Assembly (NCBI RefSeq): GCF_004010195.1
Contig: NC_057718.1
Coordinates: 99,229,430 to 99,293,429, forward strand
Length of the DNA stretch: 64,000 bases
Reading direction: 5' to 3'
Origin: Chiloscyllium plagiosum
Taxonomy: Eukaryota
The position numbers and the translations under genes were made by a program. Shown one piece after another: positions 1-44,359 of the stretch. Numbering within the stretch: position 1 is the first letter of the stretch; each line of letters begins with the position of its first letter. The notes beneath the pieces are model-generated. The model had not been told where the DNA came from. It made no database searches and saw nothing but the letters and a program-made list of their open reading frames with translations.

Positions 1-362
1 TTCCGGCTAGGAATCCTCCAACCACAAGGGATGAACTCGGGTTTCACCAGTTTCCTCATTTCCCCTCCCCCCACCTTGTCTCCGTCTAATCCATCGAATT
101 CAGCACCGCCTTCCTAACCTGCAATCTTCTTCCCGACCTCTCCGCCCCCACCCCAGTCTGACCTATCACCCTCACCTTGACCTCTTTCCACCTATCACAT
201 TTCCGACGCCCCTCCCCCAAGTCCCTCCTCCCTATCTTTTATCTTAGCCTGCTGGACCAACTTTCCTCATTCCTGAAGAAGGGCTTATGCCCGAAACGTC
301 GATTCTCCTGTTCCCTAGATGCTGCCTGACCTGCTGCGCTTTTCCAGCAACACATTTCCATC
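1..362 (+). mobile_element. Penelope-like element (PLE) 3' region, young copy, cut by the window start
   Basis: End of the GIY-YIG ORF, pyrimidine-rich UTR, then CCTGAAGAAGGGCTTATGCCCGAAACGTCGATTCTCC and the GATGCTGCCTGACCTGCTG tail. Near-identical to 56897-57205. Confidence 0.85.
268..305 (+). ncRNA. Minimal type I hammerhead ribozyme motif (PLE family A)
   Basis: CTGAAGA (273-279), extra A, stem II GGGC-TTAT-GCCC, GAAA-CG-TC. Predicted cleavage after C300. Stem I is weak (CATTC/GATTC). Confidence 0.6.
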
Positions 363-826: not shown

Positions 827-907
827 TAATGATGATGGAATGTAGCCATAGAGACCGGGAGGGCATATACATGCTGGTGGAATGGGTGGACACATCCCAG
901 ATGAAGT

Positions 908-1015
908 TTGAAACCAAAAGATAAAATGCTGGAAAATTTCAGTAGGTCTGGCAGCATCTGTAAGGAGAGAAAAGAGCTGACGTTTCGAGTCTAACTGACC
1001 TTTTGTCAAAGCTGA
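908..1015 (-). mobile_element. PLE terminal fragment with hammerhead-like motif, U3:A8 core variant
   Basis: Reverse complement of 975-1013 is AGCT-TTGACAA-A-AGGTC-AGTTA-GACTC-GAAA-CG-TC-AGCT, followed by the GATGCTGCCAGACC tail. Confidence 0.65.
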
Positions 1016-1647
1016 AGTTTTATGCGGTGACACAGTTTTGTAGGAAGAACAATCTGATACAGTATAAGCTGAGCGATACAATTTTCAGTTTGTGATTATA
1101 TGCACAAGTCATTTGAAAGTAGTGGACAAATCTGAGAAGGTTTTCTAAACAAGTACAAAGTGTGAGGCAAGGAGATTAGTTAAATTTTTATAAATCTTTG
1201 GTTGGGCCCCTGCTGGAGTATTGTAGAAAGAAATGGGGCAATAGATTTTAGGCGGAGTGTCCAGATGTCAGTGCGAGTGGCGAGGGGACTTTTAGAATTG
1301 GTACCACAGAGTTCCCCTGACACTGAGTCAAAAGCTCTGCGTTTGAAATATTTTTTATTCACTCAAGGGAAGTGGATGATGCTGGTTGGCCAACATTTAT
1401 TGCCCATCCCAAAATGGAAATCAACACGCTAGGAAAGTGTATTCATAACAGGGTTAGCATTGGCCGGTAAATCCTTCCAACACACACCAGTAGTAAGAGC
1501 AGGACAGATTTCCTGGTCAGAACATCATCGAAAGAGTGTTAAAGCCTCTACCACCCAAATCTCCGACGTGTTTGTAAATGTCGCCACCACAACTCAACTC
1601 CCTGAATGAACTGTGATATGTCACCACAAAGGTAGCATCTATGCCAT

Positions 1648-1890
1648 AGCACGGTGGTTCAGTGGTTAGCACTGCTGCCTCACAGGGACCCAGCCTCGAT
1701 TCCAGGCTTGAGCGACTGTTTGTGTGGTGTATGCCCATTCTCTGCGTGGGTTTCCTCCCTCAGTCCAAAGATGTAAGCGAATCAGCTGTGGGAAAATGCA
1801 AGGTTAGAGGGTGGGTCTGGGCTGCTCTTCAGAGGGTTGGTGTGGACTCAATGGGCTGAAAGTCTTGCATCCAGTCTGTAGGGATTCTAT
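1648..1890 (+). mobile_element. HE1-like SINE, internally deleted
   Basis: GCACGGTGGTTCAGTGGTTAGCACTGCTGCCTCACAG head and GTAGGGATTCTA tail. Confidence 0.85.
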
Positions 1891-10935: not shown

Positions 10936-11149
10936 GCATTCCAGACCAGAGAGATTGTATGGTAAAAGTTAAATACGATGGATGCTGGAAATCTGAAATA
11001 AGAACACAGAATGCTGGAGAAACTCAGCAGGTCTGGCAGTAATTGTGGAGGAAGAATCAGAGATAATATTCCAAGTCCAGTTTGACTCTTCTTCAGAACT
11101 GAATGGGGGTAGGTAATGATGGTTTTTATGCTATTGACAGATGTGTGGA

Positions 11150-11957
11150 CTACCGTTCCCTCTGTGACTACCTGGTCAGGTCCACGCCCCCCTACAACCC
11201 ACCCTCCCATCCTGGCACCTTCCCCTGCCACCGCAGGAACTGTAAAACCTGCGCCCGCACCTCCTCCCTTACCTCTATCCAAGGCCCTAAAGGAGCCTTC
11301 CACATCCATCAAAGTTTTACCTGCACATCCACTAATATCATTTATTGTATCCATTGTTCCCGATGCGGTCTCCTCTACATTGGGGAGACTGGGCACCTCC
11401 TAGCAGAGTGCTTTAGGGAACATCTCCGGGACACCCGCACCAATCAACCCCACCGCCCTGTGGCCCAACATTTCAACTCCCCCTCCCACTCTGCCGAGGA
11501 CATGCAGGTCCTGGGCCTCCTTCACCGCCGCTCCCTCACCACCAGATGCCTGGAGGAAGAACGCTTCATCTTCCACCTCGGAACACTTCAACCGCATGGC
11601 ATCAATGTGGACTTCAACAGTTTCCTCATTTCCCCTTCCCCCACCTCACCCTTGTTCCAAACTTCCAGCTCAGCGCTGTCCCCATGATTTGTCCGGACTT
11701 GTCCTACCTGCCTATCTCCTTTTCCACCTATCCACTCCACCCTCTCCTCCCTGACCTATCACCTTCATCCCCTCCCCCACTCACCTATTGTACTCTATGC
11801 TACTCTCTCCCCACCCCCACCCTCCCCTAGCTTATCTCTCCACTCTTCAGGCTCTCTGCCTTTATTCCTGATGAAGGGCTTTTGCCCAAAACGTCAATTT
11901 CGCTGCTCCTTGGATGCTGCCTGAACTGCTGTGCTCTTCCAGCACCACTAATCCAGG
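11150..11957 (+). mobile_element. Penelope-like element: GIY-YIG endonuclease C-terminal ORF plus 3' UTR, 5'-truncated
   Basis: ORF 11103-11687 contains C..C.TC followed by FTCTSTNIIYCIHCSRCGLLYIGETG..LAECFREH and PVAQHFN. Degenerate hammerhead at 11867-11897; TGGACTA on both flanks. Confidence 0.9.
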
Positions 11958-27272: not shown

Positions 27273-27624
27273 TTAGAGACAAAAAAAACTGCAGATGCTG
27301 GAGTCCAAGATAGACAGGCAAGAGGCTGGGAGAACACAGCAAGGCAGGCAGTATCAGGAGGCTGGGGGAACACAGCAAGGCAGGCAGTATCAGGAGGCTG
27401 GGGGAACACAGCAAGGCAGGCAGCATTAGGAGGTGGAGAAAACACAGCAAGGCAGGCAGTAAGCCTCCTGATGCTGCCTGGCTTGCTGTGTTCCCCCAGC
27501 CTCCTGATACTGCCTGCCTTGCTGTGTTCCCCCAGCCTCCTGATACTGCCTGCCTTGCTGTGTTCCCCCACCCTCCTGATGCTGCCTGGCTTGCTGTGAT
27601 CTTCCAGCCTCCTGCTTGTCTACA
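27273..27624. mobile_element. Palindromic PLE-tail insertion with 36-bp tandem repeats in both arms
   Basis: About 4 copies of GGAGGCTGGGGGAACACAGCAAGGCAGGCAGTATCA, then about 4 reverse-complement copies. Flanks TCTGGATTTCTAG / TCTGGATTCCTGG. Confidence 0.85.
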
Positions 27625-43518: not shown

Positions 43519-44359
43519 TGAAAGATACTCCACAGAGGCCAGGTATCCCATCACCAAGTCACCCTTTATTTACACGTGAACAGTCCTCGACTTTAATACT
43601 GCCCCATTCAGAGTCAGGTACCAGAGTGTCAGCATCCCTGATACTCTTGTTTGGATCTCAAAAAGTGTGGTGCTGGAAAAGCACAGCAGGTCAGGCAGCA
43701 TCCGAGGAGCAGGAGAATCGATGTTTCGAGCATAAGCCCTTCATCAGGAATGTTGGGGAGAGGAGGTAGTGCCCAGGGGGCTGAGGGATAAATGGGAGTT
43801 GGTTGGGGGGAATGTAGCTGGGAATGCGATCGGTAGATGAAGTGATAAGTCACAGAGGAGGGTGGAGCGGATAGATGGGAAGGAAGATGGACAGATAGGA
43901 CAGTTTAAGAGGGTGGTGCCGAGTTGGAGGGTTGGATCTGACATAAGATGGGGGGAGGGGCGATGACCCTCCAACCTGGCACCCCCTCTTAAACTCTCCT
44001 ACCTGTCCATCTTCCTTCCCACTGATCTGCTCCACCCTGCCCCTGACCTAACACCCTCAACACCACCTCCATCTCCCTATCACATTCCCAGCTACCTTTC
44101 CCCCAGCCCCACCCCCGTCCCATTTGTCCCTCAGCCCCCTTGCACCCTCACATTCCTGATGAAGAGCTAATGCTTGAAACATCGATTCTCCTGCTCCTCG
44201 GATGCTGCCTGACCTGCTGTGCTTTTCCAGCACCGCATTCTTGACTCTGACCTCCAGCATCTGCAGTCCTCAGTTTTTCCTCCTGTTTCTGTCTATCAGC
44301 CAGGGCTCCCCAGTCATATCCTATGAGATCCAGCTGGCTGACCTCATTACAATTACCAC
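43519..44359 (-). mobile_element. Solo LTR (family of 21037-21272) split by an inverted PLE dimer at 43653-44279
   Basis: LTR halves match 21037-21168 and 21160-21272; the insert is flanked by CTCTTGTTT (43644-43652) / CTCCTGTTT (44280-44288). Confidence 0.85.

What the first reader, a model, noticed from the sequence alone, without database searches (positions are those of the whole stretch)
975..1013. Hammerhead-like motif with a compensatory U3:A8 core
Seen on the minus strand: AGCU-UUGACAA-A-AGGUC-AGUUA-GACUC-GAAA-CG-UC-AGCU. The usual CUGANGA is UUGACAA, so C3 and G8 have both changed. Established: positions 3 and 8 form a Watson-Crick pair in the active hammerhead fold, and U3:A8 is a tolerated compensatory variant. 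Stem I is a perfect AGCU/AGCU, a different sequence from the other families. Inference: this covariation is the best structural argument in the window that the motifs were selected as ribozymes. The first stem II pair is an A-C mismatch in this copy.
Basis: partly seen in the sequence, partly recalled or inferred. Interest (0 to 1): 0.7.

Follow-up and report, generated by a model that had tools for sequence, protein, structure and literature searches.

The report
Penelope hammerhead with swapped core pair
This is a 105-base end-piece of a Penelope-type jumping gene whose whole family carries a tiny hammerhead-shaped RNA motif with a U-A core pair in place of C-G; the swap is already published from other organisms, and the motif is only predicted to cut RNA, so this is a new example of a known variant.

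Summary
The motif (minus strand, 1013-975) opens a 105-bp insertion (1013-909) flanked by an 8-bp direct repeat. It is the end repeat of a Penelope-like retrotransposon: long copies lie downstream of reverse-transcriptase and GIY-YIG coding sequence. U3:A8 is the family consensus, not private decay: 863 of 893 genomic pattern matches, against one C3:G8. No 3/8 variant was listed in runs of five species labels. Other families sampled in this genome keep C3:G8, so the swap is likely derived, once. The A-C mismatch in stem II is this copy's departure from the family's G-C. U3-A8 is in print for Schistosoma Penelope hammerheads (PMC4209133) and other natural hammerheads (PMC3088659), and this scan noted it before on other DNA, including this genome. 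I found no sign of cutting: 933 matches begin at the motif's first base, 28 at the predicted cut site (no clear excess over neighbours), and there were no U6 joins or RNA ends there. One small addition: the canonical core would be predicted to misfold onto the cut site in this family, and A8 relieves that. New member of a known kind; interest low.

The parts
909..1013 (-). 105-bp insertion: end repeat (pLTR) stub of a Penelope-like retrotransposon family; differs from the majority of 27 long copies at 4 places (1001, 943, 938, 922)
1013..1020 (-). 5' copy of an 8-bp direct repeat (likely target-site duplication; shares its last base with the element's first base)
   Evidence: sequence
902..909 (-). 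3' copy of the same 8-bp direct repeat (shares its first base with the element's last base)
   Evidence: sequence
1010..1013 (-). helix I 5' strand; first bases of the insertion and likely transcription start (TATAAA about 31-32 nt upstream in long copies)
1003..1009 (-). core strand U3-U4-G5-A6-C7-A8-A9 (U3 at 1009, A8 at 1004)
1002..1002 (-). [quoted passage not shown]
   Evidence: PMC4209133
987..1001 (-). helix II (1001-997 with 991-987) and 5-nt loop; A at 1001 replaces the family's G10.1, giving an A-C mismatch
   Evidence: (5 of the first 100 listed share it)
979..986 (-). G12-A13-A14-A15.1, loopless palindromic helix III (ACGU, 983-980) and C17 (979); predicted cut between 979 and 978
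   Evidence: descriptor in PMC4209133
975..978 (-). helix I 3' strand
909..974 (-). rest of the end repeat, homologous to the 3' parts of the other hammerhead families; this copy lacks the roughly 30-nt tail that many copies carry

Best explanation
The 39 bases are a minimal type I hammerhead motif at the start of a short copy of a Penelope-like retrotransposon end repeat, and its U3:A8 core is the family's fixed state, likely inherited from one source lineage in which selection would have kept the 3-8 pair of the active fold. Shown: motif, family-wide U3:A8, link to RT and GIY-YIG coding sequence, C3:G8 in the other sampled families, presence in several species. Inferred mechanism: transcription likely starts at the motif's first base, about 31 nt below a TATA box. 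A lone motif cannot close helix III, so it would cut only as a dimer through the ACGU palindrome or with help from the element's protein, and slowly. The element's RT would start about 100-135 nt into mostly uncut RNA and run off its 5' end, which would give stubs like this one. The swap likely ran through the CpG made by C7: G8 to A first (a hot spot, also predicted to loosen a misfold of core on cut site), then C3 to U to restore the pair. This particular copy is likely inert: solitary, with a broken 10.1-11.1 pair.
For: 893 matches with positions 3, 7 and 8 free; 10 lack A8 and 22 lack U3, leaving 863 U3:A8, 10 C3:A8, 5 U3:G8, 1 C3:G8, 14 other. In 24 of 30 fetched C3 copies the C sits at a junction where the opposite strand reads one G plus the family's own start, so most are likely not revertants. 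No variant at 3 or 8 was listed at 5% in runs of organisms A, C, D, E or at 3% in B, while the CpG sites show heavy decay (D thinly covered). RVT_1 E 1.1e-6 and GIY-YIG E 6.6e-4, both just under Pfam's cut-offs, upstream of long copies; the motif lies about 400 nt after the stop codon in most long copies. The endonuclease tree groups 18 family rows at 99/96 with C3:G8 families outside. Other motifs in fetched DNA: 76 of 95 are C3:G8. Cross-family pairing: 94.7% of cells paired, 6 of 11 pairs with two-sided changes. The only two CpGs in the majority sequence around the motif are both in the core. 933 matches start at the first base versus 28 at the cut site. In a lizard PLE, single 3/8 mutants kill cleavage, the double mutant partly rescues it, cleavage needs the protein, and uncut RNA is the main template (PMC11167929).
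Against: No sign of cleavage in this family. Copies with unrelated flanks starting at the cut site: 3 of 28, against 3 of 17 at +4 and about 2 of 6 at -2. 0 U6-like joins among the 20 matches that could hold them. No pile of RNA ends among 131 laid reads of one run; the second run gave 0 reads. The swap is a single event. Monomer folding is no better than shuffles and is predicted to pair the core with the cut site. CpGs also persist at about half the expected rate in the endonuclease region (11-15 versus 25), so CpG retention is weak evidence. No copy with two end repeats around one ORF was examined, so the dimer partner is not shown. One search uses 9 related rows from about 6 families, so its shuffle counts are not probabilities.
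Confidence: 0.75

Rival explanations
1. The motif descends from a ribozyme but no longer needs to cut. U3 and A8 are two transitions that drifted to fixation in one source element (A8 through CpG decay), and the sequence is kept for another role such as transcription start, RT stop or protein binding.
For: Both changes are transitions and C7 puts G8 in a CpG (sequence). Copies come overwhelmingly from uncut 5' ends. No U6 joins or RNA ends at the cut. Cleavage is not needed for insertion in vitro in a lizard PLE (PMC11167929).
Against: All other core positions are intact in the family and the two changes hit exactly the paired positions (1/78 to 3/78 by my arithmetic). The same swap recurs in Schistosoma PLEs and other natural hammerheads. 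Helix I and II pairs change in compensated fashion across families.
Confidence: 0.17
2. The swap was selected mainly to escape a secondary-structure trap. With C7 and this 3' context the canonical core strand is fully complementary to the six bases spanning the cut site; A8 breaks the trap and U3 follows to restore the tertiary pair.
For: Predicted cost of freeing the core: 5.2 kcal/mol in the natural C3:G8 copy, 2.5 in C3:A8, 2.0 in U3:A8. Helix I probability 0.33 versus 0.71.
Against: Another abundant family keeps C3:G8 at a cost of 3.6, and single exemplars of two more reach 3.9 and 6.1. The model covers monomer secondary structure only. Whether the ancestor had C7 with C3:G8 is not settled: the one C3:G8 insertion has an unresolved place in the tree. 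This reading refines the best explanation and does not exclude it.
Confidence: 0.2
3. The two changes are private deaminations of this copy in a CUGANGA family.
For: None beyond both being transitions.
Against: 863 of 893 matches carry both; 1 of 893 is C3:G8. In a search whose query omitted the core strand, 23 of the 29 rows that kept the central TGA were U3:A8 and none was C3:G8 (45 rows in all, the rest truncated or changed there).
Confidence: 0.01

Closest known systems
Minimal hammerheads (min-HHR) of metazoan Penelope-like elements, including the U3-A8 variant of Schistosoma mansoni Cercyon elements (Cervera and De la Pena 2014, PMC4209133; parts 1-2 of 4 read, supplements not seen)
   Same: Type I topology, no helix III loop, palindromic 15.2-16.2, unpaired base between 9 and 10.1, 4-bp helix I, location in the PLE end repeat, mostly solitary copies, U3-A8 core (about 1,300 hits there).
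   Different: Vertebrate host; 5-bp helix II (7-8 bp in Schistosoma); the swap here is likely independent, since sister families in this genome are C3:G8. I did not compare the proteins with Cercyon.
Natural U3-A8 hammerheads in Perreault et al. 2011 (PMC3088659; passages read)
   Same: Same core covariation, stated there to be active in vitro per an earlier study.
   Different: Their examples were not checked for host or topology here; no tertiary loop contacts are evident in this minimal motif.
PAc, Poseidon-clade PLE of Anolis carolinensis (Frangieh et al. 2024, PMC11167929; part 1 of 4 and passages read)
   Same: End-repeat hammerhead, RT plus C-terminal GIY-YIG, two 3' end points (tail), insertion from uncut RNA, no RNA-seq ends at the cut site.
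   Different: PAc has C3:G8 and was assayed; the clade of this family (Poseidon, Neptune or other) was not tested.
C3:G8 sister PLE families in the same genome (for example window 273-300, + strand)
   Same: Homologous core and downstream sequence.
   Different: Different helix I and II sequences with compensated pairs; N7 mostly A, U or G, not C.

Membership tests
Penelope-like element | Reverse transcriptase with C-terminal GIY-YIG endonuclease | tested here: met
   In long copies of the family, not in the window stub: RVT_1 E 1.1e-6 (29.0 bits, cut-off 29.6), GIY-YIG E 6.6e-4 and 0.019 (below cut-off 22.6), in that order on one strand, in broken frames. 2 of 7 fragments scanned gave no family and 1 a spurious one besides those with hits.
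Penelope-like element | End repeat (pLTR) with hammerhead after the ORF; tandem repeat-ORF-repeat layout | tested here: inconclusive
   Motif about 400 nt after the stop codon; no copy with both repeats was examined.
Penelope-like element | 5'-truncated and inverted copies, optional 30-40 nt tail, target-site duplications | tested here: met
   Fold-back copies and two 3' end points; 8-bp direct repeat in the window.
Minimal type I hammerhead (min-HHR) | Core U4 G5 A6, A9, G12 A13 A14, A15.1-U16.1, H17 | tested here: met
Minimal type I hammerhead (min-HHR) | Watson-Crick pair possible between 3 and 8 | tested here: met
   U3:A8 in 863 of 893
Minimal type I hammerhead (min-HHR) | G10.1-C11.1 pair and helix II | tested here: met
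   Met for the family (95 of the first 100 listed; helix II probability 1.00); not met in the window copy (A-C).
Minimal type I hammerhead (min-HHR) | Helix I and palindromic, loopless helix III | tested here: met
Minimal type I hammerhead (min-HHR) | Self-cleavage 3' of position 17 | not testable with these tools
   Indirect tests gave no support.
Rfam hammerhead families | Match to a covariance model | tested here: not met
   No hammerhead family among 19 matches at E<=1 in the window, for this or the canonical-core motifs.
Non-LTR retrozyme | Non-coding head-to-tail tandem units running from hammerhead to hammerhead | tested here: not met
   The window copy is single; family copies seen are solitary, inverted or attached to coding sequence.

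The most novel reading that the evidence does not exclude
The U3:A8 swap in this lineage records a three-step repair: C7 created both a CpG hot spot and a six-base-pair trap locking the canonical core onto its own cut site, G8A released the trap, and C3U restored the catalytic pair. If so, vertebrate Penelope elements are under selection for an actively cutting ribozyme even though nearly all their copies come from uncut RNA, and U3:A8 families elsewhere should be enriched for C7 and the same complementarity.
Probability: 0.2. Interest if true: 0.45.

Novelty: new member of a known kind. Interest (0 to 1): 0.2.

Why it matters
Whether the minimal hammerheads of animal Penelope elements need to cut is open: activity in vitro is low or protein-dependent, and insertion works without it. 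A family-wide compensated swap at the one pair that exists only in the active fold is modest evidence that catalysis was under selection in a vertebrate lineage. The family also gives a natural four-variant set for a cleavage assay. The variant itself is published, so the gain is an added instance plus a testable folding explanation.

Tried and rejected
Rfam scan: no hammerhead match. Monomer folding against shuffles: not significant. A strict descriptor found only 7 motifs in the 56 stretches and was replaced by a relaxed one. Search for an older C3:G8 subfamily: the one C3:G8 match is a single insertion later duplicated with its flanks (three paralogs: one C3:G8, two C3 with A8); 27 of its next-best matches were all U3:A8, and its place in the tree is unresolved. 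Some tree rows include non-homologous flank (fixed 420-nt cut), giving long branches. A second C3:G8 match lies at a fold-back junction. Genomic record of cleavage: 20 of 28 cut-site matches are fold-backs that the repeated four-base helix I sequence can explain by microhomology, so they cannot be read as cuts; the simple starts equal the controls. U6 joins: none (one search excluded a T two bases before the site). RNA reads: one single-cell poly(A) run, 2% read, 131 reads laid, no clustered ends; not a sensitive test. A general extra G before the first base was not seen (13 of the first 100 listed). Lower divergence inside the motif (6 of 945 versus 66 of 3861) was not used: 17 of the 66 come from one variable site and the copies were picked by similarity. 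The competing hairpin of core with helix II that I suspected is negligible in the four family variants folded. The automatic fold-back tag was mis-registered, so I counted from the printed flanks. Przybilski and Hammann 2007 and Lunse et al. 2017 were not available, so actual rates for U3:A8 and single revertants were not seen.

Full report
Observation. The minus strand from 1013 to 975 is as described. U3 is at 1009, A8 at 1004, the A-C mismatch joins 1001 and 987, and the predicted cut lies between 979 and 978. Helix III is only the palindrome ACGU with no loop. The 39-mer alone folds no better than shuffles (z -0.22), and Rfam finds no hammerhead anywhere in the window (0 of 19 matches at E<=1).

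What it sits in. The window is G000:C9 of a 3.56-Gb genome; that the host is a shark is recalled from repeat types and stated in earlier scan notes, not tested. The motif opens a 105-bp insertion, 1013 to 909, flanked by an 8-bp direct repeat that overlaps each end by one base. Longer copies extend 5' through about 400 nt of untranslated sequence to a stop codon. The frames before it match GIY-YIG (E 6.6e-4 and 0.019) and, further up, RVT_1 (E 1.1e-6), all slightly under Pfam's cut-offs and broken. That order, with fold-back copies and an optional tail of about 30 nt, is the anatomy of a Penelope-like element. In 537 kb of evenly placed sample the family appeared as 4 arms at 2 loci, so thousands to tens of thousands of copies is a rough guess.

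Is U3:A8 fixed? A pattern with positions 3, 7 and 8 free matched 893 places, reversed control 0. Ten lack A8 and 22 lack U3, two lacking both. That gives 863 U3:A8, 10 C3:A8, 9 G3:A8, 1 A3:A8, 5 U3:G8, 3 U3:C8, 1 G3:G8 and 1 C3:G8. The pattern demands an exact match elsewhere, so it samples little-decayed copies. A search whose query left out the core strand agreed: of 45 rows, 29 kept the central TGA; 23 of these were U3:A8 and none C3:G8. Of 34 C3 matches to a looser pattern, 30 were fetched; in 24 the opposite strand reads one G followed by the family's own start, 15 of them as direct mirror fold-backs, so most C3 copies are likely junction products. The single C3:G8 match is one insertion later duplicated with its flanks. 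Runs of five coded species labels hold the family. No variant at 3 or 8 was listed in A, C, D, E at 5% or in B at 3%, while the two core CpGs decay heavily; D had only 7 contigs laid. G10.1A is a minority state (5 of the first 100 listed).

Polarity and covariation. Clustering 116 anchor hits on a downstream motif, not on the core, gave ten clusters of four or more. Seven show CUGANGA, one is this family, one is cut off in the core, and one is a derived tandem repeat. A relaxed descriptor on 56 evenly placed stretches gave 31 C3:G8, 3 C3:A8, 1 U3:A8 and 2 other of 37, against 1 in the reversed control. Outside the family, 76 of 95 motifs in all fetched DNA are C3:G8; of 3 U3:A8, two are family copies with altered tails and one is a stray hit. 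A tree of 28 endonuclease-region rows groups 18 family rows (99/96) with C3:G8 families outside, midpoint-rooted and with several long branches. The swap is therefore likely derived, once. On nine real copies from about six families, 94.7% of cells pair and 6 of 11 pairs change on both sides: three in helix I, two in helix II, and 3:8; relatedness makes the shuffle counts non-probabilistic. So 3:8 is not the strongest evidence for a conserved structure, but it is the only pair specific to the active fold (PMC3884650, passages).

How copies arise. Long copies have TATAAA about 31-32 nt before the motif's first base. 933 matches begin at that base with foreign upstream sequence (37 of the first 100 listed are mirror fold-backs, some counted on both strands). 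Only 28 begin at the predicted cut site under a similar filter. Twenty of these are fold-backs explicable by the four-base repeat of helix I, 5 are other inversions, and 3 are simple starts, against 3 of 17 at +4 and about 2 of 6 at -2. No U6-like join was found among 20 matches. RNA reads showed no clustered ends (131 reads). I infer that copies are made from uncut RNA, the RT starting internally and running off the 5' end. This fits PMC11167929 (part 1 and passages), where a lizard PLE starts RT at two internal sites, inserts from unprocessed RNA, and cleaves only with its protein and an intact or swapped 3-8 pair.

A folding point. With C7 and this 3' sequence, the canonical core strand is complementary to six bases across the cut site. 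Using natural copies, the predicted cost of freeing the core is 5.2 kcal/mol for C3:G8, 2.5 for C3:A8 and 2.0 for U3:A8, and helix I probability rises from 0.33 to 0.71. C7 also makes G8 a CpG. A path through A8 first is plausible but inferred; other C3:G8 families tolerate costs of 0.2 to 6.1.

Known context. Cervera and De la Pena 2014 (PMC4209133, parts 1-2 of 4; supplements not seen) define the minimal PLE hammerhead, report low dimer activity, and describe U3-A8 with about 1,300 hits in Schistosoma. Perreault et al. 2011 (PMC3088659, passages) report natural U3-A8 covariation. A search for 'hammerhead' with 'U3-A8' returned only the 2014 paper. 'hammerhead ribozyme', 'shark' and 'retrotransposon' returned 3 papers, none on this by listing. 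A 2026 retrozyme preprint includes one chondrichthyan and has no hit for 'covariation' or 'catalytic core' (passages). Also seen as passages: PMC7151607 and PMC6765202. Two key papers were not held, so a prior report for cartilaginous fishes cannot be excluded. Earlier scan notes record U3-A8 PLE families in this and other genomes.

Verdict. Observation confirmed; interpretation partly supported. New member of a known kind; interest 0.2.

Noticed in passing
window 1-360 (+), motif at 273-300: 3' end of another Penelope-like family with a canonical C3:G8 minimal hammerhead; 11 such descriptor hits in the window, 10 of them C3:G8.
   Followed up: partly
window about 500-810 and 1628-1890 (+): Two tRNA-derived SINE-like repeats; resemblance to shark SINEs is recalled, not tested.
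   Followed up: no
window 27334-27565: Inverted array of a roughly 35-nt unit derived from the downstream part of a Penelope end repeat; gives spurious Rfam miRNA hits.
   Followed up: partly
window 43834-44062: Long inverted repeat between two oppositely oriented hammerhead-bearing Penelope ends (motifs near 43727 and 44176); spurious miRNA hits.
   Followed up: no
window 11103-11890 (+): GIY-YIG endonuclease end of a C3:G8 Penelope family followed by its hammerhead about 240 nt later.
   Followed up: partly
L152-L180 (fold-back junctions): Many head-to-head copies have one extra G before the family's first base on one arm, creating an apparent C3 on the other; a cap origin is untested and G is not generally enriched before starts (13 of 100).
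   Followed up: partly
L195:1500-1600: A copy that starts exactly at the predicted cut site with a target duplication of about 15 bp; could be a cleaved template or a jump between the two identical helix I strands.
   Followed up: partly
L121, L122, L123: One long insertion with C3, duplicated with its flanks on a small chromosome and two unplaced contigs at 92-94% identity; G8 in one paralog only.
   Followed up: yes
L064: Short frames resembling retroviral protease and RT fragments (recalled motif resemblance, untested).
   Followed up: no
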